Virus record (IMG/VR): IMGVR_UViG_2529293043_000033
Source: a virus
Taxonomy: Duplodnaviria; Heunggongvirae; Uroviricota; Caudoviricetes
Direction: 5' to 3' (one strand)
DNA length: 12,085 bases
Below are positions 2,946-9,701 of this stretch, piece by piece. Within the stretch, counting starts at the first letter, position 1, and every line of letters starts with the position of its first letter. Position numbers and translations under genes: made by a program. The notes beneath the pieces were generated by a model. That model worked only from the letters and a program-made list of their open reading frames with translations. It did no database searches and was not told the origin of the DNA.

Positions 2946-3003
2946 GATTTGGGTGCGACCTAATAGGTGATGGTTTGTGGGAGAGGTAGTAGGAGTTAAC
3001 TAA

Positions 3004-3023
3004 CGGGAACTAGGAATTTCCCG
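3004..3023 (-). terminator. Possible weak terminator hairpin downstream of the repressor gene
   Basis: Inverted repeat CGGGAA-N8-TTCCCG just 3' of the repressor stop; the following U-tract on the minus strand is weak. Confidence 0.25.
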
Positions 3024-3038
3024 TCGGACCATATAAGT

Positions 3039-3515
3039 TTAAGTTCCTGTCTTGGTGATGTTCTGGCTTTTCCGTTTTGATTCTTGATTTTTCAGATAGT
3101 TAGCTACCTTCATTTCCATTGCGGCAATGTAGGCACGAACGTCATGATCAACCCAACTAGGCTCCGTAGCATTTCCAGATAAGAGGAAAGCCACAATTGC
3201 TCTTTTTTCATCAGAGGCGGCTTGATAAAGGCTGTTTATGTCTAAAAGTTCACTTTTTGTATCTGAAGTGGATGGGGTTGGTATGGGGTATTCGTTAAGC
3301 CCCCAATGCTCTGGACCAACCACATCAGAAAAGAAACGCCATAGTTCTGGAAGTTTGTCTTTACTTATCGAACCTTTCTTAATCCAGTCATGGATTGATG
3401 GTGGTTGGACTTTGAAATGACGTGCGATTTCCGCCTTTGATTTGACGGCTCCTGATGCAATTTTTTTGTTAATGGCCTGCTCTATCGCTCGGCCTAAGTC
3501 TTTACCACTAAGCAT
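3039..3515 (-). CDS. racR: Prophage repressor, RacR-like (CI functional analogue)
   Basis: 158-aa ORF divergent from a YdaS/Cro-like gene and flanked on both sides by repeated operator palindromes. N-terminal HTH-like segment (AEIARHFKVQPPSIHDWIKKG). Size and context match the RacR-YdaS-YdaT immunity module. Confidence 0.75.
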   Translation of the reverse strand: MLSGKDLGRAIEQAINKKIASGAVKSKAEIARHFKVQPPSIHDWIKKGSISKDKLPELWRFFSDVVGPEHWGLNEYPIPTPSTSDTKSELLDINSLYQAASDEKRAIVAFLLSGNATEPSWVDHDVRAYIAAMEMKVANYLKNQESKRKSQNITKTGT

Positions 3516-3542
3516 TGCTTAATAGTCTCCTATGCGCATCGC

Positions 3543-3612
3543 ATTAGGCAATGCCTACTCTCGAAGCGTTAGGCATAGCCTATTGACAATTGCATTAGGC
3601 TAAGCCTAATAT
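3543..3612 (+). promoter_or_regulatory. Tripartite OR-like operator with rightward PR-like promoter
   Basis: Three palindromic sites with centres 25-26 bp apart: ATTAGGCAATGCCTAC (3543-3558), TAGGCATAGCCTA (3570-3582), and the perfect 7-3-7 palindrome ATTAGGCTAAGCCTAAT (3594-3610). Promoter -35 TTGACA (3583-3588), 18-bp spacer, -10 TAATAT (3607-3612), overlapping the third site. Confidence 0.65.
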
Positions 3613-3639
3613 TATTGTGTGTTTTTTGGAGTTCATTCG

Positions 3640-3963
3640 ATGAAAAAAGATAACTATTCATTCAAACGAGCTTGTGCTGTTGTCGGTGGGCAATCAGCAA
3701 TGGCTAGGCTTTTAGGTGTATCTCCTCCAAGCGTAAATCAATGGATCAAAGGTGTACGTCAGTTGCCTGCTGAGAGATGTCCTGCGATTGAACGAGCAAC
3801 AAAAGGTGGTGTCCTGTGTGAAGAACTTCGTCCTGATGTTGATTGGACATACTTACGACGCTCGTCATGTTATTCGCAGAATATGTCGATGAAGCAACCA
3901 AATGACGAAAACGATCATACCCGAAGCATCAAGAGGCAAATGATTCATGAAAATCAAACATGA
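3640..3963 (+). CDS. ydaS: Cro-like HTH regulator, YdaS family
   Basis: ATG 3640 with GGAG 9 nt upstream, about 20 nt from the predicted PR start site. MKKDNYSFKRACAVVGGQSAMARLLGVSPPSVNQWIKGVRQLPAERCPAIERA closely matches what I recall of Rac YdaS. The track's 3619 GTG start is less likely. Confidence 0.8.
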   Translation: MKKDNYSFKRACAVVGGQSAMARLLGVSPPSVNQWIKGVRQLPAERCPAIERATKGGVLCEELRPDVDWTYLRRSSCYSQNMSMKQPNDENDHTRSIKRQMIHENQT

Positions 3964-4372
3964 GCACATCCGCATGGCGATGAATGCCTGGGCATATCCT
4001 GATGGTGAGAAAGTTCCTGCAGCTGAAATAGCCCGGACTTATTTCGAACTGGGGATGACGTTCCCGGAACTGTACGACGACAGCCATCCGGAAGCCCTGG
4101 CTCGTAATACCCAGAAAATTTTCCGTTGGCTGGATAAAGACACCCCTGATGCTGTTGAAAAAATGCAGGCTCTGTTACCGGCGATCGAAAAGGCAATGCC
4201 GCCTCTGCTGGTGGCCCGTATGCGCAGTCACAGCTCTGAATATTACCGTGAGATCGTCGAACGGAGGGATCGGCTGGTGAAAGATGTGGATGATTTTGTC
4301 GCAGCGGCGATCGCCTGGGGCACCCTGACTAACAGTGGGGGTCAGCCTGGTAATGCTGTTGTCGTGCATTGA
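3947..4372 (+). CDS. ydaT: YdaT-like protein (toxic when derepressed; CII-like functional analogue)
   Basis: 141 aa, overlaps the ydaS-like stop by 17 bp. N-terminus MKIKHEHI and its position immediately after ydaS match the Rac/CP-933P arrangement. Confidence 0.7.
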   Translation: MKIKHEHIRMAMNAWAYPDGEKVPAAEIARTYFELGMTFPELYDDSHPEALARNTQKIFRWLDKDTPDAVEKMQALLPAIEKAMPPLLVARMRSHSSEYYREIVERRDRLVKDVDDFVAAAIAWGTLTNSGGQPGNAVVVH

Positions 4373-4440
4373 CCAACAATATTCATGCCGGATTTCTTCC
4401 GGATGTTCGAGGGTAAAGTTCGGTATCAGATGAGGTGAGT

Positions 4441-5478
4441 ATGGCTAATGCCTGGCTCAGATTGTGGCATGACATGCCAAATGATCCCAAATGGCGAACC
4501 ATTGCCAGGGTCTCAGGACAGCCAATCGCAACAGTGATGGCGGTGTATATCCACCTTCTGGTGAGTGCGTCACGAAATGTCACGAAATGTCACGGCGAGT
4601 CACTACGTGGTCACATTGATGTCACGACGGAAGATTTAGCAAGTGCGCTTGATGTGACGGAAGACGTGATTGATTCAATTTTGCATGCAATGCAGGGGCG
4701 AGTTCTGGATGGCGATCTTATTTCCGGATGGGAAAAACGCCAGGTGATGAAGGAGGATAACGGTAATGTTTCGCAAACCGCAAAATCCCCGGCAGAGCGC
4801 AAGAGAGCGCAGCGGGAGCGGGAAAGACTGCGGGAGCAGAACACTGATTGTCACGATGAGTCACGACGCGTCACGCATATGTCACGACAAGTCACGACAG
4901 ATACAGATACAGATAAAGAATTAAACCCCACACATAACGCGCGCATGCGCGAGAGTGCTCCAGCCAGTGAGTCGAATGGCGCGCCGTTGCAGACAGCAGA
5001 ACCTGAATACCCGGATGGCCTGAGCGAACCGATCGGGAAATTTCCGATGACTGGTGTCTGGCGGCCGTCGCTGGATTTTCGACAGCGGGCTGCATTGTGG
5101 GGTATGGCTCTGCCTGAGCCTGAGTTTACACCTGCTGAGCTTGCCGCATTCCGGGATTACTGGATGGCGGAGGGGAAGGTTTTCACGCAGGTTCAGTGGG
5201 AGCAGAAATTTGCCCGTCACGTGCAGCACGTCAGGGCACAGGTAAAACCAGTCAGCAAGGGGGTAAGCCATGCAGCACCAGGTGGCACCGCATCACGGGC
5301 AGTTCAGGAAATTCGGGCAGCACGTGAACAGTGGGAACGTGAAAACGGATTTATCAGCAACGGAAACGGCCTGGAAGCTGTGGGAACTTATGGGGGAGGT
5401 GTATTCGAACCGCTGGACCCAGAAGAACGGGGCTGCGCCGTCGAAGCTCTGGATTGCTCAGATTGGCGCGATGACTGA
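4441..5478 (+). CDS. Replication initiator, lambda O-like (YdaU/DUF1376-type N-terminus), contains the origin iterons; C-terminus possibly extended
   Basis: ATG 4441 with GAGG 5 nt upstream (the track's GTG 4435 is less likely). N-terminus MANAWLRLWHDMPNDPKWRTIA. Two iteron arrays lie inside the gene, as in lambda O. The last roughly 70 codons overlap the P-like gene out of frame and are low-complexity. Confidence 0.75.
   Translation: MANAWLRLWHDMPNDPKWRTIARVSGQPIATVMAVYIHLLVSASRNVTKCHGESLRGHIDVTTEDLASALDVTEDVIDSILHAMQGRVLDGDLISGWEKRQVMKEDNGNVSQTAKSPAERKRAQRERERLREQNTDCHDESRRVTHMSRQVTTDTDTDKELNPTHNARMRESAPASESNGAPLQTAEPEYPDGLSEPIGKFPMTGVWRPSLDFRQRAALWGMALPEPEFTPAELAAFRDYWMAEGKVFTQVQWEQKFARHVQHVRAQVKPVSKGVSHAAPGGTASRAVQEIRAAREQWERENGFISNGNGLEAVGTYGGGVFEPLDPEERGCAVEALDCSDWRDD
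4569..4626. repeat. Iteron array I: six GTCAC(G) repeats at 10-11 bp spacing (candidate ori)
   Basis: GTCACGAAAT GTCACGAAAT GTCACGGCGA GTCACTACGTG GTCACATTGAT GTCACGACGG; copies start at 4569, 4579, 4589, 4599, 4610 and 4621. Confidence 0.75.
4850..4914. repeat. Iteron array II: five GTCACG repeats at 10-11 bp spacing, followed by an (ACAGAT)x3 tandem repeat
   Basis: GTCACG at 4850, 4860, 4870, 4881 and 4891; tandem hexamer 4897-4914 (encodes TDTDTD in the O-like protein). A GCGCGCATGCGCG palindrome follows at about 4929-4942. Confidence 0.75.
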
Positions 5479-5932
5479 ACAGCAAATCCGGCAGGTCTGC
5501 CGTCAGTGCATGGACCGCTGCCGGGCGGGTGAAACGTGGCCTCCGGACCTGGCTGAGTTTGTGGCGTTGATTTCGGAGAGCGGGGCAAATCCATTTGGCC
5601 TGACGGTGGATGCCGTGATGGAGGAGTACCGTCGCTGGAGGAATGAATCCTGGCGGTACGACGGGAGTGATAAATACCCGTGGCCACAGCCGGTGCTGTA
5701 CCACATTTGCCTCGAGATGCGTGACAGAGGGATTGAGCGGCAGATGACGGAAGGTGAGTTAAAACGACTTGCAGAACGGCAACTGACGAAATGGGCAAAG
5801 CAAGTTGGTAACGGGATGAGTATTCCCCCGATCCGGAGACAACTCGCATCGCCGAAGTGCCCGCAAGGGCCAACGCCAATTGAATTACTGAAACAGGAAT
5901 ACGAGCGCCGGAAGGCGGCTGGTTTTGTTTGA
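5270..5932 (+). CDS. Replication protein P-like (helicase loader, lambda P family)
   Basis: ATG 5270 with AAGGGGG SD 6 nt upstream. Recalled similarity to lambda P (TWPPDLAEFVALI versus PFLPSPGQFVAWC; YDGSDKYPWPQP versus YPDAESYPWKSN) falls at comparable residue positions, and the 220-aa length is close to lambda P (233 aa). An alternative coupled start ATG 5471 (ATGACTGA with the O stop) cannot be excluded. Confidence 0.7.
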   Translation: MQHQVAPHHGQFRKFGQHVNSGNVKTDLSATETAWKLWELMGEVYSNRWTQKNGAAPSKLWIAQIGAMTEQQIRQVCRQCMDRCRAGETWPPDLAEFVALISESGANPFGLTVDAVMEEYRRWRNESWRYDGSDKYPWPQPVLYHICLEMRDRGIERQMTEGELKRLAERQLTKWAKQVGNGMSIPPIRRQLASPKCPQGPTPIELLKQEYERRKAAGFV

Positions 5933-5965
5933 ATCTGAGAAACGATTTTGTCGGAGGAAATTTTA

Positions 5966-6682
5966 ATGGAAACCGTATCTGACGCACTGAAAGCACTGAA
6001 AAGAGCCTCTTCACATGTGGTGGCAGCTCGCCTTGGAATTAGTCGTGAAGAGGCTGTCAACGAACTGTGGAAACTGAAACGCCGTGGAGAAGCGGATAAC
6101 AAGGGGGCGATATGGTGGCTGACTCAGGCTGGTGAAAGTGAACCGGTGTCACCGGTACCGAAAGTGACGGCGCAAATGCTGACAGAGGCGATTGAACAAC
6201 ATGGCCCACAAACGGCGGATGAACTGGCATTGATGTTCGGAATTACCTCCCGCCGGGCGAATTCATCGCTGGCAATGGCAATCAGCAAAGGGTGTCTGAT
6301 TCGCGTGAATCAGGATGGTAAATTTCGTTACTGCATACCGGGCGTTGATTTACCGGCAGAGCCGAAAGCAGCATCCGTAGCTGAAACGGAGGGTAAAGCC
6401 CTTCCTCAGCCAGCTGGTGTTGCGTTACCAGTCCAGGAAACGGCTGCACAGGAAGAAATTAAAACAGAAGCGGTGGAGGACATTGTGAAGTTGCAGCAAT
6501 CGTTCACTGAAGCGAAAGCAGATGACCTGATTCTACCATCGCTGCATGTGGCTAACCGCGAGCTGCGCCGGGCGAAAAGTAATGTTCAGAAGTGGGAGCG
6601 AGTCTGTGCTGCGCTACGGGAACTGAACAAACACAGGGATATTCTCCGGGATATTACCGCCACCAGAGAGCAGCAGCGGTGA
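5966..6682 (+). CDS. Hypothetical protein with two winged-helix-like segments and a C-terminal coiled-coil (possibly DUF1627-like)
   Basis: ATG 5966 with GGAGG 8 nt upstream; the track's start at 5948 is a TTG. HTH-like segments [19 protein letters not shown] and [24 protein letters not shown]. Confidence 0.55.
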
Positions 6683-9545: not shown

Positions 9546-9701
9546 ATGAAGCAGCAAAAGGCGATGTTAATCGCCCTGATCGTCATCTGTATCACCGTCA
9601 TAGTGACGGCACTGGTAACGAGGAAAGACCTCTGCGAGGTACGAATCCGAACCGGCCAGACGGAGGTCGCTGTCTTCACAGCTTACGAACCTGAGGAGTA
9701 A
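9546..9701 (+). CDS. hokD: Hok/Gef-family type I toxin (HokD/RelF-like)
   Basis: 51-aa product MKQQKAMLIALIVICITVIVTALVTRKDLCEVRIRTGQTEVAVFTAYEPEE, near-identical to HokD/RelF as I recall it. AGGAG 9 nt upstream of ATG 9546. An in-frame upstream ATG at 9489 gives a mok-like leader frame. Confidence 0.85.
   Translation: MKQQKAMLIALIVICITVIVTALVTRKDLCEVRIRTGQTEVAVFTAYEPEE

What the first reader, a model, noticed from the sequence alone, without database searches (positions are those of the whole stretch)
4541..4942. Replication origin: two GTCACG iteron arrays embedded in the O-like initiator gene
Six and five copies of GTCAC(G) at helical (10-11 bp) periodicity form two arrays about 230 bp apart inside the initiator coding sequence. 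Between and after them are GCGGGAGC direct repeats, an (ACAGAT)x3 tandem repeat and a GCGCGCATGCGCG palindrome. A weak DnaA-box-like TATATCCAC lies just upstream at about 4546-4554. The layout mirrors lambda ori inside O but uses a different iteron and two arrays.
Basis: seen in the sequence. Interest (0 to 1): 0.5.

Follow-up and report, generated by a model that had tools for sequence, protein, structure and literature searches.

The report
Prophage replication origin inside its initiator gene
A prophage of E. coli O157:H7 carries, inside the gene for its own replication-initiator protein, two phased arrays of the short DNA word GTCACG followed by an easily melted A-rich stretch. This is very probably the phage's replication origin, of a well-known general kind, but built on an initiator family and binding word that I did not find described.

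Summary
Six GTCAC copies start at 4569-4621 and five GTCACG copies at 4850-4891, all on the + strand and 10-11 bp apart. No such chain appeared in 5000 null sequences.

The arrays lie in gene 4441-5478. Its product is a 345-aa initiator with a winged-helix N-domain and a DnaT-like C-domain, and the gene overlaps a lambda-P-like loader gene (5471-5932). It is not a lambda O homologue.

The repeats are selected as DNA:
- They sit in all three reading frames.
- In Escherichia, Aeromonas and Pseudomonas phage homologues, 13 of 13 synonymous sites inside the motif are invariant, against 9 of 67 elsewhere.
- In relatives such as Ralstonia phage Hennie every copy in both arrays has switched together to GCAACG.
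- That switch tracks initiator residue 121 (Lys versus Ser), independently of overall relatedness.

Array 2 is followed by a conserved (A/C)AGATA-repeat tract, about 68% AT. I read array 2 plus this tract as the core origin and array 1 as an accessory site.

The proposed DnaA box and the GCGGGAGC repeats are not supported. No replication test exists.

Verdict: a real, probably functional origin; a new variant of a known kind; moderate interest.

The parts
3583..3612 (+). pR-like early rightward promoter candidate (TTGACA-18-TAATAT), between the racR-like repressor gene and the ydaS-like gene. It would transcribe through the initiator gene and the origin.
   Evidence: Consensus scan only: 10 of 12 matches and the only promoter-like hit in 3000-6000. 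Gene order from the RefSeq annotation of the identical O157:H7 region.
4441..5478 (+). Initiator gene (345 aa): N-terminal winged-helix domain, basic helix, disordered linker, C-terminal DnaT-like domain.
4569..4626 (+). Array 1: six GTCAC(G) iterons at 10-11 bp. It encodes a low-confidence loop (aa 43-62) between helix 3 and the helix-turn-helix of the N-domain. I read it as an accessory initiator-binding array.
   Evidence: Conserved at +129 of the gene in Evi, Aeromonas and Pseudomonas phages. The window has 21 bp (two iterons, 7 codons) more than most relatives. pLDDT is below 50 at aa 48-53. Hennie has GCAACG copies at the same place.
4654..4658 (-). Single inverted GTCAC copy about 30 bp downstream of array 1.
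   Evidence: Present at the equivalent position (+193/+214) in nearly all GTCAC-class homologues. Hennie has inverted CGTTGC copies in the same zone. Its role is unknown. It may owe part of its conservation to the conserved Asp-Val-Thr codons.
4786..4821 (+). Codons for aa 116-127 (SPAERKRAQRER), the start of the basic helix. This is the candidate iteron-reading element, with Lys121 as the class-specific residue.
   Evidence: R120, K121, R125 and R127 are invariant in 32 homologues, while the DNA here is not conserved. All 50 GTCACG-class proteins have K or Q at 121, and all 20 GCAACG-class proteins have T118/S121. The association holds across branches of the family. That this helix does the reading is an inference.
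4850..4896 (+). Array 2: five GTCACG iterons at 10-11 bp, in the codons of the disordered linker. I read it as the core initiator-binding array of the origin.
   Evidence: Present in all GTCAC-class homologues, including those 28-37% identical that lack array 1. Copy number ranges from 3 to 9 among relatives. pLDDT is below 50 for aa 136-191.
4897..4938 (+). A-rich, purine-skewed tract, (ACAGAT)x3 then AAAGAATTAAACCCCACACATAAC. This is the candidate DNA-unwinding element.
   Evidence: Lowest GC (35%) and AT skew +0.54 within 4300-5300. (A/C)AGATA hexamer repeats follow the last iteron in 34 distinct homologous sequences, with mean AT 68% against 47% for the gene. Also present after GCAACG arrays and in Rac-SA53 ydaU, which has an unrelated N-domain.
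4939..4951 (.). GC-rich palindrome GCGCGCATGCGCG bordering the A-rich tract.
   Evidence: I11. Related sequence in Rac-SA53 (GCGCGCGCGTGCGCG) and Aeromonas (CGCGCAGGCGCG). Absent in Evi and Pseudomonas 5399, so it is not a universal part of the origin.
5041..5241 (+). Codons of the DnaT-like three-helix domain (aa 201-267). Candidate single-stranded-DNA-binding or loader-recruiting domain.
   Evidence: Pfam PF17948. About 50-60% identical to solved DnaT C-domains, including the ssDNA complex 4ou6. Scores below NCBIfam's DnaT equivalog cut-off (91.8 against 201).
5471..5932 (+). Lambda-P-like helicase-loader gene. Its start overlaps the initiator stop by 8 nt (ATGACTGA).
   Evidence: Pfam Phage_lambda_P, E=1.6e-16. 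PHROG 109 'P-like helicase loader'. RefSeq 'replication protein P'. Overlap read from the sequence.

Best explanation
This is the vegetative (theta-type) replication origin of a Rac/lambdoid-type prophage of E. coli O157:H7, embedded in the gene of its own initiator.

Proposed mechanism:
1. The initiator's N-terminal part (winged helix plus the basic helix beginning SPAERKR) binds the 6-bp word GTCACG. This is inferred.
2. The copies are 10-11 bp apart (family mean 10.3), so bound proteins line up on one face of the helix and form an oligomeric complex.
3. Array 2 (4850-4896) abuts a conserved A-rich hexamer-repeat tract (4897-4938). The strain of the complex would open this tract, helped by transcription from the upstream pR-like promoter. 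Both points are inferred by analogy with lambda and SPP1.
4. The C-terminal DnaT-like domain would then hold single-stranded DNA and/or recruit the P-like loader (5471-5932) carrying host DnaB. This is also inferred.
5. Array 1 (4569-4626), 229 bp upstream in the same orientation, is an accessory set of the same binding sites. It may raise local initiator occupancy or loop to array 2, or it may throttle the initiator's own expression.

Shown here:
- The anatomy of the region.
- DNA-level selection on the repeats.
- Their conservation across homologues, and the concerted change of all copies to another word.
- The link between that change and initiator residue 121.
- The domain make-up of the initiator and its partner loader gene.

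Not shown: binding, melting or replication.
For: (1) Non-random phased arrays: chains of 6 and 5 copies against at most 2 in 5000 nulls; GTCACG count 13 against 5.3 expected.

(2) The 10-11 bp period puts copies in all three reading frames. They encode unrelated peptides (SR, VT, CH/GH) in low-confidence or disordered protein segments.

(3) Homologues found by protein search keep both arrays at the same gene positions: Escherichia phage Evi, Aeromonas pAEv1818, Pseudomonas 5399 and PACT201.

(4) Among codons with a conserved amino acid, 13 of 13 with the third base inside a GTCACG are identical in four genera, against 9 of 67 elsewhere (Fisher p=1.6e-9).

(5) Ralstonia phage Hennie (38% identical) has the same two-array layout plus a purine-rich tract, but every copy reads GCAACG. 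A further 22 viral contigs show GCAACG arrays inside N-domain homologues.

(6) Iteron class tracks residue 121 (K/Q against S) and residue 118 (mostly A against T). This includes pairs of proteins 55-65% identical to each other that belong to different classes.

Six of 8 of the remaining contigs that I tested fall in other PHROG replication-initiator ORFs.

(8) The tract after array 2 is the GC minimum of the gene and is conserved as (A/C)AGATA repeats.

(9) Context: a P-like loader gene follows immediately, and a repressor/cro-like/cII-like module and a promoter-like site lie upstream.

(10) The N-domain model is a winged helix closest to the DnaD N-domain and to a RepA_N plasmid initiator.

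(11) Precedents: the lambda/Stx origin lies in the middle of O and has iterons plus an AT-rich tract (PMC7466680). SPP1 oriL lies inside gene 38 and has direct repeats plus a DUE (PMC5737612 and PMC6316719).
Against: - There is no experimental evidence of binding, melting or replication for this element or any homologue. I found no paper on it.
- The prophage carries at least one pseudogene and may be cryptic, so this particular copy may not fire.
- The repeats also encode conserved residues (S44, V47, T48, R56, G57, V61, T62, H138, S141), so protein constraint contributes to their conservation.
- The most distant protein-found homologues (Microcystis phage Mwe-JY25, cyanophage Cy-LDV1) show no obvious arrays.
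- The A-rich tract is short and only moderately AT-rich (about 65-68%).
- No host-factor sites were identified.
- In bacterial genomes the triple-GTCACG pattern is not specific: only 6 of 120 hits lie in N-domain ORFs.
Confidence: 0.8

Rival explanations
1. Split roles: only array 2 plus the A-rich tract is the origin. Array 1 is a regulatory operator through which the initiator limits its own synthesis, either by blocking transcription of its own gene or by pairing with array 2 ('handcuffing') to prevent over-initiation.
For: Array 2 is universal in the family. Array 1 is missing in several distant GTCACG-class homologues (L090, L110, L031, L080) and in part of the GCAACG class. Array 1 lies early in the coding region, has no adjacent A-rich tract, and varies in copy number (4 or 6). 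Iteron plasmids are known to use extra iterons for control (general knowledge).
Against: Nothing here distinguishes a positive accessory role from a negative one. Array 1 has been kept with the same word, orientation and distance across genera, and it switched word together with array 2. That fits either role.
Confidence: 0.35
2. The arrays are binding sites for some other protein, phage or host (for example a repressor, partition or packaging factor), and are not the origin.
For: Binding was not tested. Phased short repeats can serve other DNA-binding proteins.
Against: - The word changes in step with a residue of the initiator itself.
- The neighbouring genes differ among Escherichia, Aeromonas, Pseudomonas and Ralstonia phages, while the arrays stay with the initiator N-domain.
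- The adjacent A-rich tract and the loader gene fit an origin.
- The layout matches characterised origins.
Confidence: 0.08
3. The repeats are only a consequence of protein-level selection or of slippage in a low-complexity coding region, with no function as DNA.
For: The encoded residues are highly conserved, and the linker is low-complexity (DKDKDK-type).
Against: - The copies are in three different frames and encode different dipeptides.
- Synonymous positions inside the motif are invariant, whereas those outside are mostly not.
- In Hennie-type relatives the peptides change completely (NATQGNADATRGN..., QCNARQRNATLGN) while the periodic DNA repeat is retained.
- The period is 10-11 bp, not a multiple of 3.
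Confidence: 0.03
4. The repeats act in the mRNA (GUCACG sites for an RNA-binding factor or for translational control), not in double-stranded DNA.
For: All arrayed copies are on the coding strand.
Against: - The spacing equals the DNA helical repeat (mean 10.3 bp).
- An inverted copy is conserved downstream of array 1.
- The arrays abut a tract typical of unwinding elements.
- The protein that co-varies with the word has a winged-helix DNA-binding fold.
Confidence: 0.03

Closest known systems
Lambda / Stx-phage origin (ori-lambda) in the middle of gene O, with gene P downstream
   Same: - The origin is embedded in the initiator's coding sequence, in the part that links the DNA-binding and loader-recruiting domains.
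- An array of initiator-binding repeats is followed by an AT-rich tract.
- A P-family loader gene lies immediately downstream.
- The origin is transcribed from an early rightward promoter.
- Extra iterons add amino acids to the protein: 13 aa in the Stx phages, 7 aa per iteron pair here.
(PMC7466680.)
   Different: - The initiator N-domain is not the lambda O family (no Pfam match).
- The iteron core is 6 bp and unidirectional at 10-11 bp steps, instead of the roughly 19-bp lambda iterons quoted in PMC7466680. That lambda's iterons have internal dyad symmetry is from my general knowledge.
- There are two arrays 229 bp apart instead of one.
- The C-domain is DnaT-like. Lambda O has the PF09524-type C-terminus, as stated in PMC5509034.
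SPP1 G38P 'replisome organizer' and oriL inside gene 38
   Same: - The origin consists of direct repeats plus an adjacent AT-rich unwinding element, located inside the organizer gene.
- The initiator lacks an AAA+ domain and hands over to a separate loader.
(PMC5737612, PMC6316719.)
- There are weak PHROG matches of the window protein to 'replisome organizer' and 'DnaD-like' families.
- One homologue of the N-domain carries PF09524, the family to which PMC5737612 assigns G38P (P0114).
   Different: - Sequence relationship to G38P was not demonstrated here.
- The host range differs (Proteobacteria).
- The repeat word differs.
- The partner is a P-type loader that uses host DnaB, rather than a phage helicase.
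- SPP1's second binding region, oriR, is many kilobases away: 32.1 kb from my recollection of the primary literature, about 13 kb on the circular genome per PMC6316719. Array 1 is only 229 bp from array 2.
RepA_N plasmid initiators of Gram-positive bacteria (e.g. the staphylococcal multiresistance plasmid RepA, PDB 4pta)
   Different: - There is no detectable sequence similarity.
- These are plasmid replicons, not phage ones.
- The C-domain and partner proteins differ.
- The similarity score is at the level shared by many winged-helix proteins.
DopC/DopE, a gene pair domesticated from lambdoid O/P-like genes (Brezellec et al. 2017, PMC5509034)
   Same: The two-gene architecture is the same: a helix-turn-helix N-domain plus a DnaT C-terminal motif, followed by a P-family protein.
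   Different: DopC/DopE are chromosomal genes of bacteria that lack DnaC and DciA, and the authors found no iteron-like repeats in dopC. Here the gene is in a prophage and carries eleven iterons. Homology of the N-domains was not tested.
E. coli DnaT (primosomal protein I, replication restart)
   Same: The C-terminal three-helix domain is about 50-60% identical to solved DnaT C-domains, including the form crystallised on ssDNA.
   Different: Only that domain is shared. The whole protein scores 91.8 bits against the 201-bit equivalog cut-off. Database names such as 'primosomal protein I' for this phage protein are therefore misleading.

Membership tests
Lambda-type origin/initiator (ori inside gene O; O = Pfam Phage_rep_O) | The initiator N-domain belongs to the lambda O family (PF04492). 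| tested here: not met
   The Pfam scan of the whole protein finds only DnaT. The scan of aa 1-137 at E<=10 finds nothing.
Lambda-type origin/initiator (ori inside gene O; O = Pfam Phage_rep_O) | The origin is located inside the initiator coding sequence and consists of an iteron array followed by an AT-rich tract. | tested here: met
   Array 2 at 4850-4896 is followed by the GC minimum at 4897-4938, inside ORF 4441-5478. This is sequence anatomy only.
Lambda-type origin/initiator (ori inside gene O; O = Pfam Phage_rep_O) | The iterons are about 19 bp long with internal dyad symmetry (4-6 copies). | tested here: not met
   The conserved core is (T/A)GTCACG(A/C) with variable spacers, unidirectional and without dyad symmetry. 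The lambda iteron sequences used for comparison are in PMC7466680.
Lambda-type origin/initiator (ori inside gene O; O = Pfam Phage_rep_O) | A P-family helicase-loader gene lies directly downstream. | tested here: met
   PF06992, E=1.6e-16. PHROG 109. 8-nt overlap with the initiator stop codon.
Iteron-type theta origin in general | Multiple directly repeated initiator-binding sites in helical phase. | tested here: met
   Spacing is 10 or 11 bp in 461 of 533 successive GTCAC pairs across the family. Most of the rest are the roughly 229-bp gap between the two arrays. Chain test.
Iteron-type theta origin in general | The initiator binds the iterons specifically. | not testable with these tools
   Indirect support only: the word (GTCACG or GCAACG) co-varies with initiator residues 118 and 121 across branches of the family.
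Iteron-type theta origin in general | The fragment supports initiator-dependent autonomous replication. | not testable with these tools
Phage replisome organizer (SPP1 G38P-like; Pfam Phage_rep_org_N / PF09524 C-terminus) | Sequence membership of the N-domain in the replisome-organizer N-terminal family. | tested here: inconclusive
Phage replisome organizer (SPP1 G38P-like; Pfam Phage_rep_org_N / PF09524 C-terminus) | A C-terminal PF09524 domain. | tested here: not met
   The window protein has a DnaT-like C-domain instead. One listed homologue of the N-domain (P0114) does carry PF09524.
DnaT (primosomal protein I) | Full-length equivalence to DnaT (NCBIfam NF002770 cut-off). | tested here: not met
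   91.8 bits against a cut-off of 201. Only aa 192-269 match.

The most novel reading that the evidence does not exclude
The element is a portable origin cassette: N-domain, two arrays and a hexamer-repeat unwinding tract. It is shared by a large family of temperate-phage initiators (1,876 clusters at 50% identity). Specificity would be set by a very simple code. The start of a basic helix (A-E-R-K-R) reads GTCACG, and its T-E-R-S-R variant reads GCAACG, so one or two residue changes plus concerted change of all 8-11 iterons create a new replicon specificity. The cassette recombines freely with different C-terminal recruiting domains (DnaT-like, PF09524 or others) at the border between the iterons and the A-rich tract. 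If true, origins and replicon compatibility groups of many uncharacterised proteobacterial prophages could be read directly from sequence.
Probability: 0.35. Interest if true: 0.55.

Novelty: new variant of a known kind. Interest (0 to 1): 0.4.

Why it matters
Origins of most temperate phages and prophages are unannotated. This analysis gives a sequence-readable origin signature: phased GTCACG or GCAACG arrays followed by (A/C)AGATA repeats inside the initiator gene. The initiator family concerned spans Escherichia, Aeromonas, Pseudomonas, Chromobacterium, Ralstonia and many metagenomic phages, and is present in about 12% of complete E. coli genomes (698 of 5426).

It also offers a testable protein-DNA recognition hypothesis (Lys121 against Ser121). 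It is a clear example of a coding sequence shaped by a DNA-level function: invariant synonymous sites, and insertions or deletions in 21-bp steps that satisfy both the helical phase and the reading frame.

For O157:H7 biology, it marks where this prophage would start replication on induction. It also corrects misleading database names ('primosomal protein I', 'DnaT-like ssDNA-binding protein') for what is a phage initiator.

It does not reveal a new principle. Origins inside initiator genes are textbook for lambda and SPP1.

Tried and rejected
- **DnaA box at 4546-4554.** It is two mismatches from the consensus, boxes are not enriched in the window, and the site is not conserved in Aeromonas or Pseudomonas homologues. 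Rejected.
- **GCGGGAGC direct repeats as an origin element.** They fall in the Arg/Glu codons of the conserved basic helix. The DNA is not conserved in homologues while the protein is. Rejected as a DNA element.
- **Lambda O homology.** No Pfam match.
- **The search for related loci with the alignment.** It returned only near-identical E. coli prophages, which are useless for diversity.
- **Triple-GTCACG scan of bacterial genomes.** It was mostly unspecific: high-GC genomes and 30-bp tandem repeats. Only 6 of 120 hits lie in N-domain ORFs, so the pattern alone is not diagnostic outside viral contigs.
- **Triple-GCAACG scan of viral contigs.** Only 22 of 114 hits lie in N-domain homologues.
- **Most distant protein-found homologues** (Microcystis phage, cyanophage Cy-LDV1). 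No phased arrays found.
- **Rac-SA53 ydaU** (DUF1376-type N-domain). No 10-bp arrays, although TGTTCAA-type repeats lie upstream of the shared A-rich tract. Not pursued.
- **Strict peptide signature of three phased iterons.** Found in only 63 of 132 representative homologues. Many of the others show looser spacing or other words.
- **Literature searches.** Searches for the iteron word, ydaU/oriJ and DnaT-domain phage initiators found no description of this origin.
Full report
**Where the window comes from**

The region 4300-5000 is 100% identical to a prophage integrated next to potC in many E. coli O157:H7 genomes. Related copies occur in 698 of 5426 complete E. coli genomes.

In the RefSeq annotation of an identical copy the gene order is:
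- integrase and excisionase;
- a RacR-type repressor gene on the opposite strand;
- a YdaS-like helix-turn-helix gene;
- a YdaT-family gene;
- a 345-aa 'DnaT-like ssDNA-binding domain-containing protein' (window 4441-5478);
- 'replication protein P' (window 5471-5932);
- small early genes and hokD.

A promoter-like site (TTGACA-18-TAATAT) lies at 3583-3612, between the repressor gene and the rightward genes. This is the early-right operon of a Rac/lambdoid prophage, and the finding sits in its first replication gene.

**Checking the observation**

- GTCAC starts at 4569, 4579, 4589, 4599, 4610 and 4621, and GTCACG starts at 4850, 4860, 4870, 4881 and 4891. All are on the + strand.
- An inverted copy lies at 4654.
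- GCGGGAGC occurs at 4812 and 4830.
- (ACAGAT)x3 occupies 4897-4914.
- The palindrome occupies 4939-4951.

GTCACG is over-represented in the window: 13 copies against 5.3 expected, and 0 of 200 shuffles reached 13. Chains of 6 and 5 copies at 10/11-bp steps never arose in 5000 first-order Markov nulls, where the maximum was 2. No other 5-mer in the window behaves this way.

**The gene around the repeats**

The product is not a lambda O homologue. Pfam finds only a DnaT DNA-binding domain at aa 201-267, and nothing in aa 1-137 even at E<=10.
- PHROGs place the protein in 'replication initiation protein' families, with weak matches to DnaD-like and replisome-organizer families.
- The C-domain is about 50-60% identical to solved DnaT C-domains. 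The whole protein falls far below NCBI's DnaT cut-off.
- The AlphaFold full-length and N-domain models show these elements:
  - three helices;
  - a poorly defined loop at aa 47-62;
  - a helix-turn-helix (aa 63-85) with a hairpin;
  - a long basic helix starting at aa 117;
  - a disordered linker at aa 136-191.
- The next gene is a lambda-P-family loader. Its start codon overlaps the initiator's stop codon.

Array 1 encodes exactly the poorly defined loop (aa 43-62). Array 2, the A-rich tract and the palindrome encode the disordered linker. The DNA elements therefore occupy the parts of the protein with the least structural constraint.

**Are the repeats a DNA element or a protein by-product?**

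Four lines of evidence point to a DNA element.

1. The period is 10-11 bp, so the copies fall in three frames and encode different dipeptides.

2. Homologues found by protein similarity, not by the repeats, keep both arrays at the same distance from the start codon. These are Escherichia phage Evi, Aeromonas phage pAEv1818, and Pseudomonas phages 5399 and PACT201. Their N-domains are only about 65% identical to the window's, and the surrounding third codon positions have diverged.

3. I took codon columns whose amino acid is the same in the four genera. All 13 codons whose third base lies inside a GTCACG are identical, against 9 of 67 elsewhere (Fisher p=1.6e-9).

4. Ralstonia phage Hennie (38% identical N-domain) has the same layout: an array at +129 to +160, an array at +400 to +430, then a purine-rich tract. 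Every copy there reads GCAACG, and the encoded peptides are entirely different. A metagenomic phage (ctOK67) has (G/T)AACGC copies followed by CAGAGACAGAGACAGATACAGATACAGATA. A concerted change of all copies in both arrays is what a shared binding protein would impose. Protein homology alone would not produce it.

**Who binds?**

I compared 50 distinct N-domains with GTCACG arrays against 20 with GCAACG arrays.
- One position separates the classes perfectly. Residue 121 is Lys (48) or Gln (2) in the first class and Ser (20 of 20) in the second.
- Residue 118 is mostly Ala in the first class and always Thr in the second.
- The two residues lie in the otherwise invariant motif A-E-R-K-R-x-Q-R-E-R at the start of the basic helix. 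That motif is conserved as protein but not as DNA.
- The association is not simply inherited. L090 (GTCACG...AERKR...) is 65% identical over aa 1-116 to L244 (GCAACG...TERSR...) but only 36% identical to the window. L268 (GCAACG) is 55-61% identical to window-type GTCACG members.

This is indirect but specific evidence for two points: the initiator itself reads the repeats, and the basic helix takes part in the reading.

**Breadth and modularity**

- The N-domain family has 1,876 clusters at 50% identity with E<=1e-3.
In 91 of them tblastn finds an N-domain homologue (28-100% identical), in nearly all cases lying over the match. Six of 8 others that I tested fall in ORFs of other PHROG replication-initiator families.
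- The DnaT-like C-domain is present in only a subset. The alignment shows conservation ending right after the iteron and Asp-Lys tract, followed by unrelated C-termini. One of these is PF09524, the C-terminal type that PMC5509034 assigns to lambda O and the family to which PMC5737612 assigns SPP1 G38P.
- Conversely, Rac-SA53 ydaU shares the window's A-rich tract, palindrome and C-domain at 88% DNA identity from window position about 4899 onward. It has an unrelated DUF1376-type N-terminal part without GTCAC arrays.
- The recombination joint therefore lies at the border between the iterons and the A-rich tract.

**The tract after array 2**

The segment 4897-4938 is the GC minimum of the gene (35%) and is strongly A-skewed. 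In 34 distinct homologous sequences, the 40 nt after the last iteron are (A/C)AGATA hexamer repeats. They average 68% AT, against 47% for the gene, and 69% purine on the coding strand. This is the position and character of a DNA-unwinding element in lambda and SPP1 origins.

**Copy number**

Array 1 has 4 or 6 copies among relatives, and array 2 has 3 to 9. The differences I aligned are 21-bp blocks, that is two iterons or seven codons. Such blocks keep both the helical phase and the reading frame. This parallels the extra iterons and extra residues in Stx-phage O proteins.

**Most likely mechanism**

1. The initiator binds the phased GTCACG words of array 2 through its winged helix and basic helix, and oligomerises on one face of the DNA.
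2. This distorts the DNA, and the adjacent A-rich tract opens, helped by transcription from the upstream promoter.
3. The C-terminal DnaT-like domain stabilises the single strands and/or brings in the P-like loader with host DnaB.

All of this is inferred by analogy. Binding and melting were not shown.

Array 1 uses the same word, so it binds the same protein. Whether it helps (by looping or by raising local concentration) or restrains (by autoregulation or handcuffing) cannot be decided from sequence. Its absence in several distant homologues marks it as accessory.

**Rejected sub-claims**

- The DnaA-box-like site is two mismatches from consensus and is not conserved.
- The GCGGGAGC repeats are Arg-Glu codons of the basic helix and are not conserved as DNA.
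- The palindrome is shared only with relatives that have the same C-terminal module.

**Comparison with known systems and novelty**

Functionally this works like the lambda origin in O and SPP1 oriL in gene 38. The gene pair resembles the phage-derived DopC/DopE pair (HTH plus DnaT_C, then P-like), for which no iterons were found.

It fails the membership tests for the lambda O family (N-domain, iteron type) and for DnaT. Its membership of the replisome-organizer family is only weakly supported.

I found no paper describing this iteron or this origin. The searchable library omits much of the older subscription literature.

I rate it a new variant of a known kind, real and probably functional, of moderate interest. 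The comparative results are the parts worth testing:
- DNA-level selection inside a coding sequence;
- the concerted switch of the iteron word;
- its link to residue 121.

Noticed in passing
window 4786-4821 (aa 116-127); loci L090, L244, L268 and others: Iteron word and initiator residue 121 co-vary. Residue 121 is K or Q with GTCACG and S with GCAACG; residue 118 is mostly A against T. This holds between proteins that are otherwise 55-65% identical, which suggests a simple recognition code in the basic helix.
   Followed up: partly
window 4590-4610, against L002, L003 and L004; array 2 in L003 and L094: Iteron copy number changes in 21-bp steps (two iterons, seven codons). These steps preserve both the helical phase and the reading frame. 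The window has two more array-1 iterons than most relatives, and L094 has nine array-2 copies.
   Followed up: partly
L210 (Escherichia phage Rac-SA53 ydaU) 1360-1560, against window 4897-4960: Rac-SA53 ydaU has an unrelated DUF1376-type N-terminal part but the same A-rich ACAGATACAGAT tract, GC palindrome and C-domain. TGTTCAA(A/G) direct and inverted repeats lie just upstream of the tract and may be the iterons of that initiator type.
   Followed up: no
window 4926-4954, minus strand: Read on the minus strand, the GC palindrome followed by the T-run (the complement of the A-rich tract) scores as an intrinsic-terminator-like hairpin. It could stop leftward transcription entering the origin, or it could be coincidental.
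   Followed up: no
window 5471-5478: The P-like loader gene starts (ATG at 5471) 8 nt before the initiator's stop codon (TGA at 5476-5478). This suggests translational coupling of the two replication proteins.
   Followed up: no
window 3039-4372: The immunity region is Rac-like: a RacR-type repressor gene on the minus strand (3039-3515), a promoter-like site at 3583-3612, a YdaS-like/Cro-like HTH gene (about 3640-3963) and a YdaT-family gene (3947-4372). Pfam calls the last two 'toxins', but here they occupy the cro and cII positions.
   Followed up: no
L209 (Pseudomonas phage PACT201) 1468-2500: The homologous initiator region of PACT201 keeps both GTCAC arrays. As deposited, however, it is frameshifted and unannotated, so it is either a pseudogene or a sequencing error.
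   Followed up: no
L331 6870-6955, L351 6425-6540 (bacterial genome contigs): In some Planctomycetota and Verrucomicrobiota genome bins the triple-GTCACG pattern recurs every 30 bp in tandem repeats unrelated to the initiator family. This is a different repeat element sharing the same word.
   Followed up: no
window about 9546-9701: A hokD-type type I toxin gene lies downstream in the same prophage, according to the RefSeq annotation of the identical region.
   Followed up: no
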